DNA from: Geosporobacter ferrireducens
GTDB lineage: Bacteria; Bacillota; Clostridia; Peptostreptococcales; Thermotaleaceae
Assembly (NCBI RefSeq): GCF_001750685.1
Contig: NZ_CP017269.1
Coordinates: 1,465,416-1,529,415 of the forward strand
Length of the DNA: 64,000 bases
Direction: 5' to 3'
Shown here: piece after piece, positions 28,265 through 63,187 of the stretch
Numbering within the stretch: position 1 is the first letter of the stretch
Layout of the letters: each line of letters begins with the position of its first letter
Notes under the pieces: model-generated
Seen by the model: the letters and a program-made list of their open reading frames with translations, nothing else
What the model was told of the DNA's origin: nothing
Databases searched by the model: none
Program-made: the position numbers and the translations under genes

Positions 28265-28724
28265 TTTAGACCTATAAACAATAAAAGGGGTATATCAAAT
28301 TTTGAGCCAAATACTCGAAATTCGATATACCTTTTTGTTTTACTGATATTGAGATCTAGGAAACGATGTTTTATCAGTACCCCTGCATTTTAATTTCTAT
28401 ATTTAATGTATCAATATTTTATTACGCTTTAACTTCCTTTTGCTTGATAGTGCAATAGTTATATCACTTTTTCATATTCGTCCTTTGATCTTACAACTTC
28501 ATTTTCTTCAGATCTTTTACAATATCTTGTAGTATATGATTTCTCTTAATTTTCATCCACATAGATATAGTACAATTTTTACAAACTGTACCTTAACCTC
28601 ACATTATTTGTACGCATTTCACGCACTCATAACTTATCATTTTTTATAAATGCTCTGTTAAAGAATAGTGTTGAAATCATAACATTTTATTTGTGTACCT
28701 CTTATGGTAAAATTAAGTCGTAAT

Positions 28725-28960
28725 AGTTGGATAGTGCGACCCAAAGATCCTTCACTCCATTTAGGATGACAATTCATCCTACGGACGACCACAGGTCGCC
28801 CCTACAATTTATTCTTAACGGTCCAGCACCGTAGGGGATGAAATCCCCTGCCGCCTTCAGGAAGGTGCTCAGACAGCTTTGCTGTCGTCGAAGGAAACCT
28901 AGGGTTTCCTAGCGAAAGCGTCCTAGACACTCTTTTTATAGGGAAAGATTTCCCTCATAA
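28725..28960. other. GC-rich structured element beginning GATAGTGCGAC (solo copy of the end sequence of the 58.3-kb MITE-like element)
   Basis: Its left end GTTGGATAGTGCGAC matches the GTAGAATAGTGCGAC inverted-repeat terminus at 58275. Internal GC hairpins (GGGGATGAAATCCCC etc.). Lies in a 900-bp non-coding leader of the WYL gene pair. Confidence 0.35.
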
Positions 28961-32834: not shown

Positions 32835-32918
32835 GGGTAACCTAGAGGGGAGTCGAACCCCACACCATAGGTGCAACCATAGCTGACCGCTCTACCAATT
32901 GAGCTACACAAACCCCTG
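32835..32918 (-). pseudogene. degenerate tRNA-like sequence (intact D-arm GTAGCTCAATTGGTAGAGC and T-arm GGGGTTCGACTCCCC, no foldable anticodon stem); a second T-arm-like hairpin GAAGGTTCAAATCCTTC at 32924-32940
   Basis: Seen directly. I could not fold a cloverleaf: the anticodon region carries a CTATGG direct duplication, and the acceptor strands do not pair. Confidence 0.3.
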
Positions 32919-33199
32919 AGGTTTGAGGAAGGATTTGAACCTTCTACACATCAGTTCTCTTAGGGCAAGCTCAGGCATACATAGGATCATGGATCAAATG
33001 CACCGCGCAGTCTCAAAACTGCCGCATTAAGCTTGCTTCCACAGCACTCGGCTGTAATTATATATTATAATGAATTGCTTTTGTTTTCATGAAAAAAAGT
33101 GTGCGAAGTTTTATTTGGGATAGTAGACGCCAATCTCTTTCCTACCACATATGATAGTAGAAAGGTGGTTTTGGAGGTGTTCCTAAAACATTTCCCTTT

Positions 33200-33661
33200 A
33201 TGGGAGTATTAAGATTAGAATCAAGGGGTCAAGTACTGCAAGCCGCTTATCCTGTTGCTATTGGTAAACCCAGTATAGCTAGTCCTACAGGTACTTTCAA
33301 AATCACGGAAAAAGCCCCCAATCCAGATGGTGTATTCGATACACGACGGATGCGCTTCTATAAGGATTATGGCATCCACGGCACCAACAATCCTGCTTCG
33401 ATTGGTAACACCGTATCTAATGGCTGCATCCGTATGTTCAATGAGGATGTGAATTTCATCTATGCAGTGGTCACCATCGGCACAGATGTTCGGATCATTC
33501 CTTCTGAAAGAAGTTTCCGTACCTATGCGGTACAGCCAGGAGGCACCTTGTATTCTATTGCTTTGAGATTTGGCGTATCCTTTTCGGATCTTCTTAGCGC
33601 AAATGTCGGCGTGGATAATGTAGATGTGATCTATATAGGACAGGAGTTGGTTATTCCTTAA
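33200..33661 (+). CDS. small L,D-transpeptidase (YkuD catalytic domain) with C-terminal LysM domain; the only intact member of a dispersed repeat family
   Basis: Catalytic HGT...SNGCIRM (His/Cys) motif, and the LysM segment TYAVQPGGTLYSIALRFGVSFSDLLSAN. Confidence 0.8.
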   Translation: MGVLRLESRGQVLQAAYPVAIGKPSIASPTGTFKITEKAPNPDGVFDTRRMRFYKDYGIHGTNNPASIGNTVSNGCIRMFNEDVNFIYAVVTIGTDVRIIPSERSFRTYAVQPGGTLYSIALRFGVSFSDLLSANVGVDNVDVIYIGQELVIP

Positions 33662-33854
33662 AGAAAACCTTTTTATTTTATAGTGTTATCAGCATATATT
33701 ATTGTATGGATATATAATCTTGGAAACAACCCAAGCGTCCCCAAGGCTTCTATTGAGCAGACAAAAATGATGCCACGAAAACCCAGTGGTTCCCTGACAA
33801 AAGGTTATCTTGGTAACCATTTGAAAACGCTTTCTGTGTCAAATGATTATCCTA

Positions 33855-44328: not shown

Positions 44329-44644
44329 TCCATCTCCTCCAACATTCTTGATTTTATAAATTTTATGTTACGAAATCAGGAATTATTAGCCTTAACGGTT
44401 AGACCTCTACAAATTTGGTCCCTAGAGATTCTAAGAAGTTATATATCCATAACTATGATTTATAGAATTCTAACCAGTTCCTTACTTTTATAAAATCTCT
44501 TTGTTTTGCGAAATTTTTCCCCCTATAAAGCAAAGACCCCTAAACTTATCGTCTAGAGGAACATCCATCATTTTTTATTTTCATCTAAGACTTGCTAAGC
44601 TACTGATTTTAACCTACTTCTTCTCTATCAAAACCACACATTCT

Positions 44645-44880
44645 ACATCTCAAACGGCTGCGTCCGTATATTTAAAGAAGATGTTAATTTTATATAAGCG
44701 CTGGACACCATCGGTACAGCGGTTCGAATCATTCCTTCTGAGAGAGGTTTCCGTACCTATGCGGTGCAGATGAGATGTACCTTGTATTCCATTACCTTAA
44801 GCTTCGGAGTATCCTCTGAGAATCTTGTTGGTGTAAATGTGAGTGTGGATGCGATTACTGCTATTTTTTTGGGTAAAGCG
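44645..44880 (+). pseudogene. 3' fragment (catalytic Cys to LysM end) of a YkuD-LysM L,D-transpeptidase paralog
   Basis: Aligns at the nucleotide level with 33415-33660 of the intact copy (NGCVRIFKEDVNFI*...IIPSERGFRTYAVQ...) with frameshifts and stops. Homology starts abruptly at CAAACGG. Confidence 0.6.
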
Positions 44881-44966
44881 TTATTTACTGGTTAACAGCC
44901 TATTTCAGCGGGAAAAAGAGCGCAATGGTCATTATATTCCGGATGTAAAAAAGGATTGTTAGCTGA

Positions 44967-46070
44967 TTAGTGATCGGATTTAAGACCTGCTCCACACATA
45001 GGGATCAAGCAATCGGATAGCTTTTCATTTAATTCACAATACTTTAGGTAGGCTGCAAAAGTGGCTGCTGTTGTATGCTCACAATAAATACCTTTTGCAG
45101 CAAGAACTGTCCTGGCTTCCATAATTCGATTTTCAGGAGCTGTAATGATTTTAATATTGTGCTTATAGGTATATTCTAAAATTTCCTCGCCACGTATGGG
45201 TATGCCAATAGCAATTCCCTCAGCCATTGTTGGCTCAGGCTTCACCTTAACTGGATACTTTTCTTTTGTAACAAATGCTTTTGCAAAAGGATCACAGTAT
45301 TCGCTTTGAACGGCTATGATATTGGGCATTTTCTCAATGACAGCGCTCTCAAGAAGTTCTTCCAATGCCTTCACAATACCAATAAATAGCGTACCGTTAC
45401 CCAGGGGAACAAAAATATTTTCAGGAATTCTGTGCATTTGCTCATAGACTTCATAAATATATGTTTTTGTGCCTTCATAGAAGAACGGATTATACACATG
45501 GCTTGCGTAATATTTTCCCTCAGTATCCACTTTTGCTCTGCAGGCATCCGCACAGTCATCCCTTGTACCATGAACCACATTTACCCGTGTATTATGGGAT
45601 TGAATCATATTGATTTTTTTTGGTGATGTTCCTTCAGGAACAAAAATCTCACAATCTATACCCGCTTTTGCACTGTAAGCTGCCACACTATTTCCGGCAT
45701 TGCCACTGCTGTCCTGCACAACAGAATCTACCCCAATAGCTTTGCAGTGGGCAATCAATACGGCGGCACCTCTATCTTTAAAAGACAAGGTCGGCATGAA
45801 ATAATCCATTTTAAGTAGGACATCTTCATCAAACTGAATCACAGGGGTCATACCTTCTCCTAAACTGATTTTACGCCAGTGTTCTCCTTCCAATGGCATG
45901 AAAGCTCGATAACGGAAAATGCTCCAAGTATCACGATCCACTAAGGATAGATCAAACTTTGGAGGCTTATAATCCAATTTCCAAAGACTCCCACAGTCGC
46001 ACTTTGCCCTTTTCGTTGTTACCTCCGTCCCTATACCACACTTTGAACAGGTATATTTCATTTTTGACAC
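44967..46070 (-). CDS. thrC: threonine synthase-like PLP enzyme (Trp-synthase beta fold with N-terminal Zn-ribbon)
   Basis: CSKCG...CDCG zinc ribbon, SFKDRG PLP-lysine motif and GNAGNS glycine loop. Confidence 0.65.
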   Translation of the reverse strand: MSKMKYTCSKCGIGTEVTTKRAKCDCGSLWKLDYKPPKFDLSLVDRDTWSIFRYRAFMPLEGEHWRKISLGEGMTPVIQFDEDVLLKMDYFMPTLSFKDRGAAVLIAHCKAIGVDSVVQDSSGNAGNSVAAYSAKAGIDCEIFVPEGTSPKKINMIQSHNTRVNVVHGTRDDCADACRAKVDTEGKYYASHVYNPFFYEGTKTYIYEVYEQMHRIPENIFVPLGNGTLFIGIVKALEELLESAVIEKMPNIIAVQSEYCDPFAKAFVTKEKYPVKVKPEPTMAEGIAIGIPIRGEEILEYTYKHNIKIITAPENRIMEARTVLAAKGIYCEHTTAATFAAYLKYCELNEKLSDCLIPMCGAGLKSDH

Positions 46071-46079
46071 ACCTCCGCA

Positions 46080-46441
46080 ATCGCTTCAATTTCTATAAGA
46101 CATCCAAAGTGGAGTTTACCAACAGGCACAACTGTCCTTACTGGTTTGTGTTCGCCAAAGAATTCAGTATACACTTGGTTAACGATGTCTCACTGGTCGA
46201 TATCTGATACATACACTCTACACTGGACAACATCATTACGATTAAGCCCAGCTTCTTCTAGCACTCGGTCAACATTTTCCAGAGCAAGTTTCGCGTGTGC
46301 TTCGATTCCCCCATCTGGCACATTCCGGGTATCTGGATCTATAGATAGTTGTCCAGATATATACAACATTCCATTTGAAATAATTCCAGGTGTATAATGG
46401 CCTTTGTTTTCACCACGGTATTTTGGTTCTATCTTATACAT
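46080..46441 (-). pseudogene. ridA: RidA/YjgF-family deaminase interrupted by an in-frame TGA
   Basis: The frame reads ...RVYVSDIDQ*DIVNQVYTEFFGEHKPVRTVVPVGKLHFGCLIEIEAIAEV. The stop aligns with the conserved aromatic residue before the VNEVY motif. Confidence 0.6.
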
Positions 46442-46574: not shown

Positions 46575-46955
46575 TGCTTCTATTTCATTACATTACTTGT
46601 AAACGGGTGATATAACTTCAAGAACACGAATATACAGCAGGATTTAAAGGAGTTCATGCTTTTATGTAGAAGTTCGTTATGATACAAAAGATTTACACAG
46701 GAGGTACTGATATGAAAAAGGCGGTACTGATTTTAAGGTAGGTGGCTTAAATCATTTAACAAAACAAGGATGGCTTAGTACGATTATCACCATAGTTATA
46801 TTTATCGGAATATGGTTTTTTCTTTCTCAATGAGAATAATAGATGGTAGAATGAATCGAAAAATCCAGCGACGGGTGTACCCACCACGGGCTGGATTCGT
46901 TTCTTTGAAGACTATGGCACCCATGGAATCAACAATCCTGCTTGGATTGGCAACG
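46575..46955 (+). pseudogene. leader plus 5' fragment of the YkuD-LysM paralog (repeat family copy)
   Basis: Shares CATTACATTACTTGTAAAC...ACTTCAAGAA-ACGAATATA-AGCAGGATTTAAAGGAGTTCATGCTTTTATG and GGTAGAATGAATCGAAAAATCCAGCGACGGGTGTACCCACCACGGGCTGGATTCG with the 57.6-kb and 59.6-kb copies. Homology to the gene stops at GGCAACGG. Confidence 0.55.
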
Positions 46956-47077
46956 GGGAGACAAACGAAACGTCCCCAAGCCCTTATTGATCCCAAACCT
47001 GCTTCCGCTCTATCTGTGCTACAGGATTGTATGTAAAACCTATCCTATAATGAATGAAAGTTGGGTCATATATAATT

Positions 47078-56398: not shown

Positions 56399-57016
56399 CC
56401 CTCCATATCTTTTTATTTCTTGTCCTCTTAATCATACCGATTCCAATTAAAAAGATAATTAAAAGCTTGTAATTATTTTGTAAATTTTGTGGTTTTTATT
56501 TGTGTTTCTTTGCTTTTTGTTGTTTTATTCCCAGCTTGCCTTAGCATTATAATAGAAAAGGTAAGCATATTTTCGTTTAACGAATCGATCTGCTTACCTT
56601 TATGATTTATTGGCTTATTTGGAGACATGCTTCGTCTCTATGCTCATTAATAAAAGAAAAACGAATTTTATGCGGTTTTCATATAGCCTTCCTTATGATT
56701 AATCTTATATTCTTCACTACAAATATAACACAAACTTAACGTGCCTATAAACATCCTGAACCTTAGCACAGTTATAACGTAATTGGTTCATCTTCTATGG
56801 ATGATCTCTTTTGCTTCATGTCTTTTCGTTAAATTTTTTATGAAAGTCTGTGAATTACTTTATGCGAGGATGGATTATCTACAGAAAAAACGAGTCAGAA
56901 CTAAAGCCAGAATCTTATGAGATTAATCGTTTTTTAGACACGGCTCCATCGGAGAACATTCAGCTACAGGTTTTTAAGCCTAAATAAGAAGGCTATCTAT
57001 ATAAGATAGATAACCT

Positions 57017-57520
57017 CTATACGCAACCTACTCGACTACCCTTTTTTGACAGCTTATCTGCAATCCCTGTGGATGCATAGGATTCTGGTTTAATACAGCA
57101 TTTAAACCCTAATGCCCCCACCCAACCTGCAATTTCCTTTACTAAATACTTCGTATCTCCACCCTCACCAATATCTACGTGCACCTCTAAGGCAGCACGG
57201 ATTTCCTTCTTTTGAATATACTCCATAACCTTTGCAGCTAATTCAAGACTATATTGGGTTTCCACAAATATCTTATGCCGGAGATCATTAATTATTTTCA
57301 ATCTTTTTATATCATAAAAAAAGATGCCTCCCTTGGACTTGCGAACCAGGGTGATTACAGAAACCATTTTTGTAAGACCACTGAAGTTTTGAGAGTCTGT
57401 TCCAATAGAAATCACATAGGTACATTGTAAATCCATGTCAATGTAATCTTTTATTTTTTCACATACTTCTTGAAAACTTAGTTCCCCATAAGTGATACTT
57501 TTCATCCTATACACCTCCAA
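57017..57520 (-). CDS. YkuK/DUF458-family RNase-H-fold protein
   Basis: ISIGTDSQ motif characteristic of DUF458. 167 aa. Confidence 0.5.
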   Translation of the reverse strand: MEVYRMKSITYGELSFQEVCEKIKDYIDMDLQCTYVISIGTDSQNFSGLTKMVSVITLVRKSKGGIFFYDIKRLKIINDLRHKIFVETQYSLELAAKVMEYIQKKEIRAALEVHVDIGEGGDTKYLVKEIAGWVGALGFKCCIKPESYASTGIADKLSKKGSRVGCV

Positions 57521-57629
57521 GAACTTTTCTAAACTGTCATATTTATATCATACGCCTTCAGTATTTTCTTACGAGGTTTTAATATTAAGATTTTCTAAAT
57601 TTCATGTTAATCATACACCAGTTTTCAAA

Positions 57630-57897
57630 CTATTTCATTACATTACTTGTAAACTGTTGTTAAAGTTAAAGTTAAGCATTAAATATAACTTCAAGAAAAC
57701 GAATATAAAGCAGGCTGCCACAGCCTGTTTTTATCATACTGATAGGTTCCCTAAATTTTTAAACATAAGGATTAGCGAGATACAGCAGGATTTAAAGGAG
57801 TTCATGCTTTTATGCAGAATATGGTTTTTTCTTTTCAGATGAGCGCAGTGGATGGTAGAATGAATCGGAAAATCCAGTCTTTTCAGTAAAATACCTT
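57630..57897 (+). pseudogene. leader plus extreme 5' fragment of the YkuD-LysM paralog (repeat family copy), truncated at AAAATCCAG
   Basis: Same leader as 46575-46870, with an internal 70-bp insertion/duplication. Ends ...GGTAGAATGAATCGGAAAATCCAG, then unrelated sequence. Confidence 0.55.
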
Positions 57898-58274
57898 ATT
57901 GATATCACAAAGCAAAGGAAGTGCAAAATAACACTTCCTTTGACAGCGCCTAATTACATATAAAAGAATCCACATTTACCATACGTGTTCCGATAAACAA
58001 GAAAGCGCGTGATGAAATGAAAAGAGTAATTTTGCTCAAATTTTTTTGTTAGCGATACTGCTATTATAGTCTCCTCAATGGAACGAGCTCTCATAACTGC
58101 TGAGAGCTCTATATTATAAAGAGGGGGATAACCTCATAAATACAGTTTAAAACAAGATTATGAATAAACTATGAACAAACTATGAAGAATTTATCATTTT
58201 TTGTAAAATAAAAAATCAAGGGTATGTTTAAGAAAGTGGTTGAAAATGATATATCCTTATAAAGTTATTTTGCA

Positions 58275-58540
58275 ATTGTAGAATAGTGCGACATACAGGG
58301 GAACACCACAGGGAGTGTTCCATGCATCACATACCGACAGGCTGTTATTTCCTGTAGGGGAGAACATTGTTCTCCCGATGCATATCATTAGCGGGCGCAC
58401 ACTGTGCGCCCCTACATTGTCTCCCACATAAGGATAGCGGTAGGGGCAGACCTGTGTGTCTGCCCAAAGAGACGGCAAAATTAACGGGTGGACACATAGG
58501 TCCACACTCCACCAATATGTCGCACTAATCTACCTATGCG
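58275..58540. mobile_element. MITE-like non-autonomous element with 18-bp terminal inverted repeats (GTAGAATAGTGCGACATA ... TATGTCGCACTAATCTAC) and an internal array of GC hairpins
   Basis: Seen directly. GC-rich. Internal hairpins GGGAGAACATTGTTCTCCC, GGGCGCACACTGTGCGCCC, GGCAGACCTGTGTGTCTGCC and GTGGACACATAGGTCCAC. The ORF 58257..58505 across it is Cys/Pro/Gly-rich nonsense. Confidence 0.5.
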
Positions 58541-58785
58541 CTATATGATTAATCTCTGATATCATAGAAAAAAAAGTAATAGGATAGAATGAAAGAGACT
58601 GGCAAGGAAAATATATCATCACAAGTAAGTATATCTAGAAGACAAACGAATCGTCCCCACAAGTCCTACATTGTATATTTAAATAGGAAATAAATTACAT
58701 TTTCTCTATTGACTGTACTTGCATCAATGGATAAACTAGATACAAAGAATTATAATCGACTATCCTATCTATTAAAACGGAGGTA

Positions 58786-59562
58786 ATGGTCATGTCAAAT
58801 TATGTTTTGTCATTAGATAACGCTAGAATAGCTTATGACGTTACTGGGCACGGACCAGCGATCTTGCTAGTTCATGGCATGGGATCAAAGGTGAATAAAA
58901 ACCTATGGAAGGACACTGGCTGGGTAGAAAAACTCACTCCTCATTTCACTGTGATTACAATGGATTTGAGGGGGTTTGGCGAGAGTGATAAATCCCACGA
59001 TCCAGAATTTTACTCAATCAATAATATTATTAATGATATTCATGCAGTTATAAATGCCTGTGGGTTTAAAGAATACCACTATTTTGGACATTCTTATGGG
59101 GCAACAATTGGACTACAGACATGTATTTTAAGTAAACATGTACAAAAGGTCATTTGTGCCGGTACTACATTTGGAGATAGTTTCTTCAAGGAGTCAGTAC
59201 CAAAATGGATTGATGAATATGAAATCTTAAATACTTGCAAGCAAACTAAAACTTATAGTAATCAAGATTTGGCAGAAGAAGATATCGAATGGGTAGAAAA
59301 TACGGATATAGAAATAATAATCGCTCAACTAATGGCTATGAAGTCTTGGAAAGGCATTGATGTTTGTGATATTACTAAAAAATTAGCAGTATATACAGGC
59401 TTCAATGATAATCCTTTGGTTCTGGAAAACTTTGAGCAAAACGAGAATCAACTAAAGCGCAACGAAATCGCTCATAAAATATTTGATAACCTTAACCACA
59501 GCGATCTAGTTAGTAAAGTTGATACTGTCTTACCTTGGGTATTGGAATTTCTCCTTCAATAA
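58786..59562 (+). CDS. alpha/beta-fold hydrolase
   Basis: LLVHGMGS oxyanion motif and nucleophile elbow GHSYG. 258 aa. Confidence 0.8.
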   Translation: MVMSNYVLSLDNARIAYDVTGHGPAILLVHGMGSKVNKNLWKDTGWVEKLTPHFTVITMDLRGFGESDKSHDPEFYSINNIINDIHAVINACGFKEYHYFGHSYGATIGLQTCILSKHVQKVICAGTTFGDSFFKESVPKWIDEYEILNTCKQTKTYSNQDLAEEDIEWVENTDIEIIIAQLMAMKSWKGIDVCDITKKLAVYTGFNDNPLVLENFEQNENQLKRNEIAHKIFDNLNHSDLVSKVDTVLPWVLEFLLQ

Positions 59563-59624
59563 TAACTTGCTGCACTTTTAGCTTAATGAAATATAGCAAG
59601 CATAGCCCCTATAGAAGAATTTAA

Positions 59625-59884
59625 AAATCCAGCGACTGATGTACCCACCACAGGCTGGATTCGTTTCTTTGAAGACTATGGTATCCCATGGCACCAATCA
59701 TCTTGCTTCGATTGGCAAAGCTGTTTCCAATGGCTGTGTCCGTATGTTCAATGAGGATGTGAACTTCATCTATGCTGTGGTAACCATCGGTACTCAGGTT
59801 CGAAGCATTCCTTCTGAGAGAAGCTTCCATACTTATACGGTACAGCCTGGAGATACTATGTATGCCGTAGTCTACAAAATATAA
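59625..59884 (+). pseudogene. 3' two-thirds of the YkuD-LysM paralog (from AAAAATCCAG to the stop), frameshifted relative to the intact copy
   Basis: ...YPPQAGFVSLKTMVSHGTNHLASIGKAVSNGCVRMFNEDVNFIYAVVTIGTQVRSIPSERSFHTYTVQPGDTMYAVVYKI*. Aligns to 33300-33560 with indels. Confidence 0.6.
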
Positions 59885-59886
59885 AA

Positions 59887-59927
59887 AGTAGGCTTTATAC
59901 TTGTGTCAAATATAAAGCCTACTTTTT
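59887..59927 (+). terminator. rho-independent terminator (12-bp stem GTAGGCTTTATA/TATAAAGCCTAC, then TTTTTTA)
   Basis: Seen directly, right after the paralog fragment stop. Confidence 0.6.
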
Positions 59928-60051
59928 TACGCTATACCATTGTTTTGCGATGCCATTAGTAAATTATTCCTGCTCCGATAGTAGGATGGTTTTACATTTT
60001 CTATTGCCAGCAGAACCTTCCCTTGTAACACATAAGCTAAGAACTTCTGTT

Positions 60052-61639: not shown

Positions 61640-63187
61640 TTAATTCTTGTCTAAATCCGCTGTTATTTCATAATAATCCGATGGATGTGCCGTAAAACCT
61701 GTTATTCCCTTCTTCATGACAAATGACATTTTTAAATGAGAAGCATAGATATATGCGTTATCATCCAGTACTTGCTGTACGATTTTTACAGCCAGATTAC
61801 TTCGTTTATTCAAATCAAACTCATTACGAAGCTCCTCCACCCATTTTTCAACCTTATCATTATGGTAATATCCCCTATTGTAGTCAGACCCATCTACCAA
61901 ATGGGTTGTAAAATAATATTGAGGATCCCCCGTAGGGGCAGCAACAAAGGCATTGGCAAACACATCATACTTTCCAGCCTTGAGGAAATCCTTATAACTA
62001 TCTGTTGCATTCACCTTCACCTCGATACCAGCTTTTTTATAGGATGCCTGAACGGATTCAGCCAGCAATGGTAATTCCTGTCGGGATGTATAGGTCAGCC
62101 AGTCAATTGAAAGCTTCTGTCCATTCTTTTCTCTGATCCCATCCCCGTCGGTGTCCACCCATCCTGCAGATTCAAGGACTTCTTTTGCCCCTTCAATATC
62201 ATAGGGGACTTCTTTGACAGCATTCCCTCCGAATTTAAAGTTATCCGGAAAAGGCCCAACAGCAGGAGATCCATTGCCCTGAAGCAATACAGCGGTAAAG
62301 CCCTCCTTATCTGTGCACATAGCCATGGCCTTTCGTACTGCACTGTCTTGAATCATCTTTGAATGATAATTTAGTGCAGCCTGATAGACCCTTGAGGTTT
62401 CTGTAGAACTTATGGTATATCGATCATCATTTTGGAACAATTTAAGACTTGCATAGGGAAGACCCTGGGCTGCATCTATTTCTCCGCTTTGCAGAGCCAT
62501 GGTTAGAGTATCTCCGTCTGAAATACTTTTAATGTTCACCTTATCCACCTTCGGTACGCCATTCCAATATTTGTTGTTGGCTTCCAGATGAATCTCTGTA
62601 TCAGAAACTTTTACTGCTACATAGGGTCCAGTCCCCACCACGTTTTTATCTTCACTTACGCCTGCTTCCATATCAATGATTGCTCCATAAGGGTCAGCCA
62701 AGTAGTTCACAAGCCCAGGAACTTTGTTTTCAGAAACAATCGTTACGCTTTGCCCCTCTGCAGCTATGGATTTTATCTGCAGATCCTTAGGAGCACGGTC
62801 GTGAACAGTTACAAGGTTTTCTAGGCACACTTTCACCGCTTCTCCGGTCATTTTATTCCCATTGGAAAAAAACACATCATCCCTTAAGTTTATTTTAACA
62901 GTATACTCATTTACCTGCTGATAATCCTTTGCAAGCCAAGGTTCCAACTCCATAGAGGCATTGAATTTGAAGAGGGTTTCTCCCACGCCGTAACGAACCG
63001 TCGACCATCCGCTATATCCTTCATGTGGATTTAAACCGGCATTCCCCATGGCAACCCCATAAGCCATGGTTCCATAATTAAATACCTTTTCTGTTGTATC
63101 TGCTTTTGTATTTGTACATCCTGTCATGCTACTAACCACCAATGCCACGGCCAGCAGCATTCCTCCTATTTTTCTATATTGTTTCAT
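61640..63187 (-). CDS. ABC transporter substrate-binding lipoprotein, family 5 (OppA/DppA/NikA-like)
   Basis: Lipobox SSMTGCTNTK. About 500-aa SBP_bac_5 architecture. Confidence 0.85.
   Translation of the reverse strand: MKQYRKIGGMLLAVALVVSSMTGCTNTKADTTEKVFNYGTMAYGVAMGNAGLNPHEGYSGWSTVRYGVGETLFKFNASMELEPWLAKDYQQVNEYTVKINLRDDVFFSNGNKMTGEAVKVCLENLVTVHDRAPKDLQIKSIAAEGQSVTIVSENKVPGLVNYLADPYGAIIDMEAGVSEDKNVVGTGPYVAVKVSDTEIHLEANNKYWNGVPKVDKVNIKSISDGDTLTMALQSGEIDAAQGLPYASLKLFQNDDRYTISSTETSRVYQAALNYHSKMIQDSAVRKAMAMCTDKEGFTAVLLQGNGSPAVGPFPDNFKFGGNAVKEVPYDIEGAKEVLESAGWVDTDGDGIREKNGQKLSIDWLTYTSRQELPLLAESVQASYKKAGIEVKVNATDSYKDFLKAGKYDVFANAFVAAPTGDPQYYFTTHLVDGSDYNRGYYHNDKVEKWVEELRNEFDLNKRSNLAVKIVQQVLDDNAYIYASHLKMSFVMKKGITGFTAHPSDYYEITADLDKN

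What the first reader, a model, noticed from the sequence alone, without database searches (positions are those of the whole stretch)
57880..59640. 1.7-kb insertion splitting a paralog copy, flanked by a short imperfect direct duplication (AAAATCCAG core), carrying a MITE and an alpha/beta hydrolase
The 57.6-kb copy ends ...GAATCGGAAAATCCAG and the 59.6-kb copy resumes ...GAATTTAAAAATCCAGCGAC. Together they reconstitute one gene. The 9 bp AAAATCCAG are duplicated perfectly, and about 21 bp imperfectly, on both sides of a 1727-bp insert. The insert contains the TAGTGCGAC MITE-like element and a 258-aa alpha/beta hydrolase, but no transposase. This fits an old target-site duplication from a non-autonomous or since-decayed element that delivered the hydrolase gene.
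Basis: seen in the sequence. Interest (0 to 1): 0.55.

Follow-up and report, generated by a model that had tools for sequence, protein, structure and literature searches.

The report
Indel between two decayed gene copies
A 1.7-kb stretch carrying an intact hydrolase gene separates two pieces of dead-gene debris that lie side by side in another copy 11 kb away, but nothing marks it as a transposon insertion, so it is most likely ordinary genome decay at a short chance repeat.

Summary
The pieces at 57630-57877 and 59612-59884 are contiguous in the copy at 46580-46955. AAAATCCAG is perfect on both sides of about 1.73 kb, and the repeat extends to 13/16, or 18/22 with one gap. That stretch holds a hairpin-rich repeat and an intact alpha/beta hydrolase.

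The transposon reading lacks every hallmark except the repeat. The insert has no terminal inverted repeats, no transposase or integrase remnant and no other copy, and no relative shows an empty site. The "uninterrupted paralog" is itself a dead chimera: an orphan 5' segment fused to the 3' part of a YkuD/LysM L,D-transpeptidase pseudogene, with the fusion point inside the repeat.

Perfect 9-mers recur about 14 times in these 2.3 kb. Most other length differences between the two copies, and between this strain and its relatives within 1 kb, are deletions at short repeats.

My best reading (about 0.45) is that the long arrangement is older and the 46.8-kb copy lost the 1.7 kb by deletion between the 9-bp repeats. 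Insertion into a 46.8-like sequence is not excluded.

The whole of 57612-60031 is a lineage-specific islet at a synteny break, and at least its right-hand kilobase was recently exchanged between lineages. The "MITE" is a REP/BIME-like hairpin cluster whose allele differs between near-identical strains. Interest is low.

The parts
57612..60031 (.). Lineage-specific islet at a synteny break. It holds both paralog pieces, the hairpin element and the hydrolase.
   Evidence: Homology to the L029/L030 lineage (92%) stops at about 57611-57615. Homology to the L031/L032 lineage (93-94%) starts at about 60032. The two flanks are not neighbours in those relatives.
57630..57877 (+). 5' piece: an orphan leader plus '5' segment', not YkuD sequence.
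   Evidence: It matches 46580-46868 in blocks of 86-100% identity. The 40-aa ORF of the 46.8-kb version has no homolog among 1.84 billion representatives. No database protein joins it to YkuD.
57715..57789 (+). 75-bp stretch absent from the 46.8-kb copy, bounded by ATAAAGCAGG and ATACAGCAGG.
   Evidence: Families D8 and D13 overlap on 46632-46641. This is the same 'long form with flanking repeat' signature as the 1.7-kb indel.
57856..57877 (+). Left repeat TAGAATGAATCGGAAAATCCAG (perfect 9-mer core at 57869-57877).
57878..59611 (+). The roughly 1.73-kb stretch absent from the 46.8-kb copy.
   Evidence: No inverted repeats at its ends. No protein-family remnants in its non-coding parts.
58278..58533 (.). 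REP/BIME-like hairpin cluster (the 'MITE'). It has an 18-nt inverted repeat GTAGAATAGTGCGACATA and three GTAGGGG-headed palindromes in +,-,+ orientation.
   Evidence: Fold energy -121.6 kcal/mol, z = -8.6. Inverted repeat. GTAGGGG units. The interior differs between strains that are 99.7% and 98.8% identical. The L021 allele is highly similar (my estimate about 90%) to 28722-28835.
58630..58672 (+). Short motif (AGACAAACGAATCGTCCCCA...) also found beside two other YkuD copies (33713-33756 and 46957-46990).
58792..59562 (+). Intact alpha/beta-fold hydrolase of 256 aa. GGAGG lies 8 nt upstream, and a promoter-like site lies at 58728-58756.
   Evidence: Pfam PF00561/PF12697/PF12146. No NCBIfam model reaches its cut-off. 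100% identical to the G. ferrireducens protein P0001; the next homolog is 68% identical and sits in an unrelated context. GHSYG nucleophile motif is visible in the translation. GC is 0.32-0.38 against 0.40-0.47 in the ABC genes.
59612..59632 (+). Right repeat TAGAA-GAATTTAAAAATCCAG (perfect 9-mer core at 59624-59632).
   Evidence: L021 and L027 read TATAAAAG where the window reads TATAGAAG.
59626..59884 (+). 3' piece: YkuD C-terminal half plus the start of LysM. It is a pseudogene with a +1 frameshift near 59683 and a truncated LysM.
   Evidence: Pfam YkuD, E=2.6e-7. 81% identical to 33348-33553. Alignment to intact 235-aa genes shows homology only from the N-P codons AATCCAG onward.
59883..59927 (.). 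Bidirectional terminator-like hairpin that closes the hydrolase/YkuD-remnant unit.
46580..46955 (+). The 'uninterrupted' reference copy. It is itself a dead chimera: orphan 5' segment, then the single repeat, then 86 bp of YkuD, then the motif.
   Evidence: It is structurally identical in a second strain.
33200..33661 (+). N-terminally truncated but open YkuD+LysM paralog (153 aa; identified with P0121 by length and organism, sequences not compared directly).
44610..44895 (+). Older, more decayed YkuD/LysM fragment.

Best explanation
The 1.7 kb is one of several length differences between two decaying, duplicated copies of non-functional DNA. It arose by illegitimate (RecA-independent, short-homology) recombination at the 9-bp sequence AAAATCCAG, not by transposition.

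The most likely direction is deletion. The long arrangement (orphan leader and 5' segment, about 900 bp of non-coding DNA, hydrolase, YkuD/LysM remnant) is the older state. A copy of it at 46.6 kb lost the 1.7 kb by deletion between the two chance 9-bp repeats, which left one hybrid repeat and fused the orphan 5' segment to the YkuD remnant.

The hairpin element is an independent REP/BIME-like repeat that happens to lie inside the stretch.

Shown: collinearity, the repeat, the absence of transposon hallmarks, the chimeric nature of the reference copy, deletions nearby, and the islet boundaries. Inferred: the direction of the event.
For: 1. No transposon hallmarks. The insert ends have no terminal inverted repeats. 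There is no transposase or integrase remnant. There is no second copy in the window, plasmids or phages.

2. The 46.8-kb 'reference' is a chimera. YkuD homology starts only at AATCCAG. The upstream 5' segment has no homolog anywhere. It is never joined to YkuD in 5.8 billion proteins. A deletion that fused two unrelated neighbours at the repeat explains this fusion directly.

3. The single repeat at 46.8 kb is a one-switch hybrid. It is left-type at three discriminating sites and right-type at the fourth, as a repeat-mediated deletion predicts.

4. Short perfect repeats are abundant, with about 14 pairs of 9 nt or more in 2.3 kb, and P=0.36 for a chance 9-mer linking the two regions. The substrate for such a deletion therefore needs no special origin.

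5. Other differences between the same two copies point to deletion.
- A 75-bp stretch flanked by ATA[A/C]AGCAGG is present only in the long copy.
- The 139 bp present only at 46.8 kb carry a ribosome-binding site, a start codon and a hydrophobic ORF that runs across the junction, so they were lost from the 57.8-kb copy.
- The 46.8-kb copy has clearly lost the YkuD 3' half and LysM.

6. Within 1 kb to the left, this lineage lost the RimK and NT5C genes (about 0.8 kb each) that the L029 lineage retains; Anaerosolibacter also keeps RimK. The junctions lie at short imperfect repeats.

7. The repeat is too diverged (4 differences in 22) for a 22-bp duplication made within the period allowed by the paralog divergence of 13-14%.
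Against: - No copy or lineage was found in which the 46.6-kb locus still holds the hydrolase or remnants of the 1.7 kb. No second, diverged hydrolase paralog exists in the protein database, which holds nothing between 100% and 68% identity.
- The hydrolase has lower GC than its neighbours, and its nearest homologs are in other genera. This fits foreign DNA inserted into native debris.
- The hybrid repeat is equally predicted by integration at a short core, which is the reverse reaction.
- Both directions need one coincidence: the YkuD truncation point lies within about 10-25 bp of the repeat.
- I could not show that the sequence just left of the right repeat is YkuD-derived, which would have excluded insertion.
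Confidence: 0.45

Rival explanations
1. Integration of hydrolase-bearing DNA into a 46.8-like debris sequence by recombination at a short shared core (AAAATCCAG). This could be Campbell-type or microhomology-mediated, or driven by a site-specific recombinase acting in trans. It would leave one hybrid repeat on each side.
For: - A perfect 9-bp core with imperfect flanks is what attL/attR or a microhomology crossover would leave.
- The hydrolase has low GC, and its nearest homolog is 68% identical in an unrelated context.
- The hydrolase/YkuD-remnant tract is 97-99% identical to lineage L027, while the adjoining ABC operon is about 93% identical (third codon positions 3.8% against 12%). It has therefore moved between lineages recently.
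- At the same position, a sister lineage has decayed tyrosine-recombinase sequence plus an APH gene.
Against: - There is no integrase or remnant in the islet.
- The recently exchanged tract runs about 400 bp beyond the right repeat and ends at the islet boundary, not at the repeat.
- The stretch contains repeats that occur elsewhere in this genome.
- No empty site is known.
Confidence: 0.25
2. A DDE-type transposon or non-autonomous derivative with a 9-bp (IS4/IS1/Tn10-like) or longer target-site duplication inserted into the paralog and delivered the hydrolase, and its ends have since decayed.
For: A 9-bp perfect direct repeat sits exactly at both homology boundaries. A length of 9 bp is typical of several IS families (my own knowledge).
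Against: - The ends of the stretch have no terminal inverted repeats although the 9-mer is still perfect.
- There are no transposase remnants.
- There are no other copies.
- The content is a mosaic: non-coding DNA, a repeat family and a motif that both recur elsewhere in this genome, and one gene with only 46-60 bp of 3' flank.
- The only inverted-repeat element inside is a separate 256-bp unit with its own ends.
Confidence: 0.12
3. The two pieces are independent partial copies whose ends overlap by chance.
For: Truncated YkuD fragments are scattered in this genome and in relatives. Short repeats are common.
Against: The pieces are in the same order and orientation, 1.7 kb apart. Their ends overlap by exactly the repeat on the reference. 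They share derived features with the 46.8-kb copy, namely the extra codon after N-P and the same 5' boundary. Three related assemblies have the same junctions.
Confidence: 0.05

Closest known systems
Deletion between short direct repeats (illegitimate recombination or replication slippage) and the deletional bias of bacterial pseudogenes. From my own knowledge: lacI deletion studies of Albertini et al. 1982; Mira, Ochman and Moran 2001.
   Same: The long form has a 9-bp repeat at both ends, and the short form keeps one hybrid copy. The DNA is non-functional. Neighbouring gene-sized deletions with short junction repeats have known polarity.
   Different: The polarity of this particular indel is not shown. 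The deleted stretch would have included an intact gene copy, and no trace of it remains.
Target-site duplication by IS or transposon insertion (families with 9-bp duplications such as IS4, IS1 and Tn10; IS1634-type long duplications).
   Same: A direct repeat flanks the extra DNA exactly at the homology boundaries.
   Different: There are no terminal inverted repeats, no transposase, no other copies and no empty site in relatives. The extended 22-bp repeat is too diverged.
Integrase-less islets bounded by att-type core repeats (for example CIME elements of Streptococcus thermophilus; my own knowledge).
   Same: Small gene-bearing DNA lies between short direct repeats without a recombinase of its own. 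Integrase debris sits at the equivalent site of a sister lineage.
   Different: The repeats lie inside the islet, not at its borders. No cognate integrase is known. The 9-bp core is within the range of chance repeats.
REP/BIME elements (repetitive extragenic palindromes with a GTAG head, linked to RAYT transposases; my own knowledge), compared with the 'MITE' at 58278-58533.
   Same: It has GTAG-headed GC-rich palindromes in alternating orientation, an intergenic location, and different unit content at the same site in near-identical strains.
   Different: It occurs in a Clostridia-class genome. An 18-nt outer inverted repeat encloses the cluster. No RAYT gene could be looked for. A family member at 28.7 kb overlaps the Rfam Clostridiales-2 RNA hit.

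Membership tests
IS / DDE-transposon insertion (autonomous, composite or non-autonomous) | Short direct repeat of the target flanking the element | tested here: met
   AAAATCCAG is 9/9 at 57869 and 59624; 13/16 ungapped.
IS / DDE-transposon insertion (autonomous, composite or non-autonomous) | Terminal inverted repeats at the two ends of the inserted DNA | tested here: not met
   No inverted pair joins 57878... with ...59611/59623 among the 25 longest of the 67 inverted pairs found with seed 7, and reading the two ends directly shows none.
IS / DDE-transposon insertion (autonomous, composite or non-autonomous) | Transposase gene or recognisable remnant | tested here: not met
   The only ORF with a family hit is the hydrolase. 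The ten longest stop-to-stop ORFs of the non-coding parts gave no Pfam hit at E<=1.
IS / DDE-transposon insertion (autonomous, composite or non-autonomous) | Further copies of the element, and an empty site in relatives | tested here: inconclusive
   No other copy in the window, plasmids or phages. L021, L001 and L027 all have the filled state. The rest of the genome was not available.
MITE (element at 58278-58533) | Small size, terminal inverted repeats, no coding capacity | tested here: met
   256 bp; 18-nt inverted repeat, 94% complementary; only spurious ORFs.
MITE (element at 58278-58533) | Target-site duplication flanking the element, and presence/absence polymorphism | tested here: not met
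   There is no direct repeat outside either candidate boundary. Strains differ by allele replacement at the same site, not by presence or absence.
REP/BIME | GTAG-headed GC-rich palindromes, clustered in alternating orientation, intergenic, variable between strains | tested here: met
   GTAGGGG plus palindrome at 58354(+), 58415(-) and 58440(+): 5 matches against 0.76 expected in the window. Strain variation. A related hairpin occurs in another genus-level relative, L025.
REP/BIME | Cognate RAYT (Y1 transposase) in the genome | not testable with these tools
   The complete genome could not be searched.
Site-specific integrative element | Integrase, and att core repeats at the element borders | tested here: not met
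   There is no integrase remnant in 57530-58790. The repeats lie inside the islet 57612-60031, not at its borders. Integrase debris exists only in the sister lineage L031.
Repeat-mediated deletion product (the 46.8-kb copy) | The long form has the repeat twice, and the short form has a single hybrid copy with one switch point | tested here: met
   46847-46868 is left-type at three sites and right-type at one. The 75-bp indel shows the same pattern.
Repeat-mediated deletion product (the 46.8-kb copy) | An outgroup showing the long form to be ancestral | tested here: inconclusive
   The second strain has the same 46.8-kb structure. Metagenome scans gave no further copy of the 5' unit.
YkuD (L,D-transpeptidase) + LysM paralog family | Pfam YkuD and LysM domains, and an intact reading frame | tested here: not met
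   The 33.2-kb copy has both domains. The split copy has only a YkuD C-terminal remnant with a frameshift and a truncated LysM. Its '5' piece' is not YkuD.
Alpha/beta hydrolase fold-1 | PF00561 match above cut-off and a G-x-S-x-G nucleophile motif | tested here: met
   74 bits against a cut-off of 25.8. GHSYG is in the translation. No specific NCBIfam equivalog reaches its cut-off.

The most novel reading that the evidence does not exclude
The whole 2.4-kb islet (57612-60031), rather than the 1.7 kb, may be a discrete cassette without an integrase that moves between Geosporobacter/Thermotaleaceae lineages. It would land at a hot spot just past the 3' end of the ABC operon, and the internal AAAATCCAG repeats would be cores at which cargo (the hydrolase) is swapped in or out.

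The hint is as follows. The part of the islet seen in lineage L027 (59003 onward; that contig starts inside the hydrolase) is 97-99% identical to the window. The adjoining operon is about 93% identical, and the change falls at the islet border. A sister lineage that is closer to L027 in the operon carries an APH gene and integrase debris there instead.
Probability: 0.08. Interest if true: 0.5.

Novelty: already known. Interest (0 to 1): 0.17.

Why it matters
The main value is as a caution. A short direct repeat flanking "extra" DNA relative to a paralog is not evidence of transposition when the paralog is itself decaying, because repeat-mediated deletion leaves the same picture.

The locus does show that a small accessory hydrolase sits in a variable islet that has been exchanged between lineages. 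It also shows that a REP/BIME-like hairpin family in this Clostridia lineage changes allele between strains that are 99.7% identical. Neither point changes current understanding.

Tried and rejected
- **Exact-protein look-ups.** The hydrolase (both start choices), the 162-aa RNase H-like protein and P0119 found nothing.
- **Genome-collection scan.** The YkuD protein query did not return G. ferrireducens itself, only relatives at 66% identity or less plus two short partial fragments at 78-86%.
- **5' segment.** It looked like the N-terminus of an ABC permease or a membrane-anchored YkuD. I rejected this. No protein joins it to YkuD, and a full HMMER scan found only one spurious repetitive protein.
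- **Does YkuD homology extend left of the right repeat?** That would have excluded insertion. Ungapped identity was 48-50% over 21-33 nt (my hand count from the alignment rows), but local alignments were at shuffle level. Inconclusive.
- **Remains of a YkuD copy or of the 46.8-kb flank inside the stretch.** I found only the 20-45-nt motif. A 10-mer CCTTATTGAT match is at chance level.
- **Flanks of the two copies.** No homology beyond the known blocks.
- **Rfam on 57500-60000.** Only sub-threshold noise.
- **Metagenome scan with the junction pattern.** No match.
- **Literature searches.** "Clostridiales-2" and the species name gave nothing useful.
- **Orthologous locus in other genera.** There is no synteny, so no empty site could be read.
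Full report
**Source and gene content**

The window comes from Geosporobacter ferrireducens. The hydrolase is 100% identical to an NCBI protein of that species, and several neighbouring proteins are exact matches.

The "paralog" is a YkuD (L,D-transpeptidase) plus LysM family (Pfam). Intact members in this species and its relatives are about 235 aa and consist of PG_binding_1, YkuD and LysM (P0117-P0120).

The window holds four remnants, all on the + strand:
- an open but N-terminally truncated 153-aa copy at 33200-33661;
- a badly decayed fragment at about 44610-44895;
- a copy at 46580-46955;
- the split copy at 57630-57877 plus 59612-59884.

**Check of the observation**

The left piece aligns to 46801-46868 and the right piece to 46847-46953, so 22 bp of the 46.8-kb copy are represented on both sides of the intervening DNA.
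- Left repeat: TAGAATGAATCGGAAAATCCAG.
- Right repeat: TAGAA-GAATTTAAAAATCCAG.
- Single copy at 46.8 kb: TAGAATGAATCGAAAAATCCAG.

Nine bases are perfect. The match is 13/16 ungapped and 18/22 with one gap.

The intervening 1.73 kb holds:
- about 400 bp of non-coding DNA;
- a 256-bp hairpin element (58278-58533);
- about 250 bp containing a short motif and a promoter-like site;
- an intact 256-aa alpha/beta hydrolase.

**What the two pieces are**

They do not reconstitute a gene. YkuD homology in both the 46.8-kb and 59.6-kb copies is demonstrable only from the N-P codons (AATCCAG) rightward.

The DNA to the left of that point at 46.8 and 57.8 kb is a leader followed by a short hydrophobic ORF. 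The ORF has no homolog among 1.84 billion representative proteins. It is never found joined to YkuD (every hit covers only the YkuD part of a chimeric query).

The "uninterrupted" copy is therefore a dead chimera whose fusion point lies inside the duplicated 22 bp.

The 57.8-kb copy lacks 139 bp (46669-46807) that carry the ribosome-binding site, the ATG and part of the hydrophobic ORF. It also carries an extra 75 bp (57715-57789) bounded by ATAAAGCAGG and ATACAGCAGG, where the 46.8-kb copy has one ATACAGCAGG.

The 59.6-kb piece has a +1 frameshift and a LysM domain cut after about 12 residues.

**Tests of the transposon reading**

- No inverted repeat joins the two ends of the 1.73 kb.
- Stop-to-stop ORFs of its non-coding parts hit no Pfam family at E<=1.
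- The stretch has no second copy in the window, in 72,556 plasmids or in 50,697 phage records.
- No empty site exists in any relative I could reach. A second strain (L021/L028, 99.6-99.9% identical) has both junctions and the same 46.8-kb copy. L001 (98.8%) and the metagenomic lineage L027 (94.6%) have the same right junction.
- A 9-mer repeat is not unusual here. Twenty-one 9-mers (about 14 pairs) recur in 57630-59900. One of them is TCTTTTCAG, the first nine bases of the stretch, which also occurs 48 bp upstream. A chance 9-mer shared by the two piece regions is expected with P=0.36.

**Direction of the event**

The data fit either an insertion at 57.8 kb or a deletion at 46.8 kb. The one-switch hybrid structure of the single repeat is predicted by both, because integration at a core and deletion between repeats are reverse reactions. 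Both also need the YkuD truncation point to lie next to the repeat.

I favour deletion, at about 0.45, for these reasons:
- It needs only a commonplace mechanism and chance repeats, which are abundant here.
- It creates the otherwise unexplained fusion of an orphan segment to YkuD.
- The 75-bp difference has the same signature, and no mobile element of that kind is known.
- The two indels whose polarity can be inferred are both deletions. The ORF that straddles the 139-bp junction shows that those 139 bp were lost from the 57.8-kb copy. The 46.8-kb copy has clearly lost the YkuD 3' half and LysM.
- Within 1 kb to the left, this lineage demonstrably lost the RimK and NT5C genes (about 0.8 kb each) at short imperfect repeats. 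L029 serves as outgroup for both genes, and Anaerosolibacter for RimK.

Against deletion:
- There is no trace of a second hydrolase copy.
- The hydrolase has a lower GC content than its neighbours.
- The nearest hydrolase homologs are in other genera.
- I could not show that the DNA just left of the right repeat is YkuD-derived, which would have excluded insertion.

**Wider context found on the way**

Homology to related lineages stops at about 57611-57615 on the RNase H-like side (L029/L030, 92%). It resumes at about 60032 on the ABC-operon side (L031/L032, 93-94%). The two flanks are not neighbours in those relatives. The whole of 57612-60031 is therefore a lineage-specific islet at a synteny break. 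The paralogous unit starts 18 bp inside its left edge.

Against lineage L027, the tract from the hydrolase to the YkuD remnant is 97-99% identical up to about 60,025. From there on, the ABC operon is 89-95% identical in most 200-bp windows (third codon positions 3.8% against about 12%).

L001 shows the opposite pattern. Its operon is 100% identical except for one short 94.7% tract at 62423-62722, while its hydrolase tract is 98.3-99% identical and shares seven variant sites with L027.

In the operon, L027 is closer to L031 (95.7%) than to the window. Even so, L031 carries an APH gene and decayed tyrosine-recombinase sequence where L027 and the window carry the islet.

The islet, or at least its right kilobase, has therefore been exchanged between lineages recently. 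The exchanged tract ends at the islet border, not at the right repeat.

**The "MITE"**

The element at 58278-58533 folds into five GC-rich hairpins (z = -8.6). It is enclosed by an 18-nt inverted repeat that begins with GTAG. It contains three GTAGGGG-headed palindromes in +,-,+ orientation. I read this as REP/BIME-like.

Its interior is replaced by different sequence in L021 (118 bp in place of 219 bp) and again in L001, while the flanks are 99-100% identical. The L021 allele is highly similar (my estimate about 90%) to window 28722-28835, which runs into the Rfam Clostridiales-2 RNA hit at 28817-28898. The same type of hairpin occurs upstream of an intact YkuD gene in another relative (L025).

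This element is independent of the 1.7-kb indel.

**Verdict**

The transposon/TSD interpretation is not supported, although insertion by some route is not excluded.

The locus is ordinary genome decay and islet turnover around an accessory hydrolase. Novelty is low and interest is about 0.17.

The decisive test is to look at all copies of the 5' unit, and at the 46.6-kb locus, in the complete genome and in the lineages that are 93-95% identical.

Noticed in passing
window 28722-28898: A second member of the TAGTGCGAC/GTAGGGG hairpin repeat family lies directly 5' of, and overlaps, the Rfam Clostridiales-2 RNA hit (28817-28898, 69 bits). Strain L021 carries a highly similar copy (my estimate about 90%) at the 58.3-kb site. 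The Rfam 'sRNA' may therefore be part of a dispersed repeat.
   Followed up: partly
window 58278-58533; L021 9060-9225; L001 7540-7626: Three strains that are 98.8-99.9% identical in the flanks carry three different hairpin-element alleles at exactly the same site. This is allele replacement, not presence or absence.
   Followed up: partly
window 59003-60025 vs L027 1-1023; L001: The hydrolase/YkuD-remnant tract is 97-99% identical to a lineage whose adjacent ABC operon is about 93% identical. The break falls at the islet border. L001 shows the reverse pattern. This indicates recent recombinational exchange of the islet.
   Followed up: yes
L031 6350-7682: In a sister lineage, the position downstream of the same ABC operon holds a frameshifted tyrosine-recombinase fragment and an APH (phosphotransferase) gene instead of the hydrolase islet. 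The site looks like a variable integration hot spot.
   Followed up: partly
window 56569-57016 vs L029 3521-5529: The RimK and NT5C genes present next to the RNase H-like gene in the L029 lineage (Anaerosolibacter also has RimK there) are cleanly deleted here (about 0.8 kb each). The junctions lie at short imperfect repeats.
   Followed up: yes
window 33713-33756, 46957-46990, 58630-58672: A motif of about 20-45 nt (core GACAAACGAAWCGTCCCCA / CGTCCCCAAG) occurs three times, twice just downstream of YkuD copies and once upstream of the hydrolase. Its function is unknown.
   Followed up: partly
window 32840-32952 (- strand): A tRNA-like sequence with a T-arm consensus was not called by ARAGORN. 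It gives a sub-threshold match to YrlA (Y RNA-like; 29.6 bits, E=2.8e-4). No Rsr or RtcB gene lies nearby; the adjacent gene encodes an SPFH/Band 7 protein.
   Followed up: partly
window 46068-46441 (- strand): A RidA/YjgF-like gene (my reading of the translation; no family search was run) has an in-frame TGA where a tryptophan is expected (ORF called as 83 aa). It is a probable pseudogene or a sequencing error.
   Followed up: no
L006 5870-6268; L015 1010-1172; L017 3001-3137: Relatives (Anaerosolibacter, and a MAG contig binned as Pelosinus) also carry truncated YkuD fragments. These share a common 5' junction (…TCGTTCGGTAAACC). Scattering of partial YkuD copies is therefore a trait of the lineage.
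   Followed up: partly
window 57630-57826 vs 46580-46678: The leader part of the two paralogous copies is about 97% identical, while the part to the right of the 139-bp indel is about 86% identical. This suggests gene conversion or constraint on the leader.
   Followed up: no
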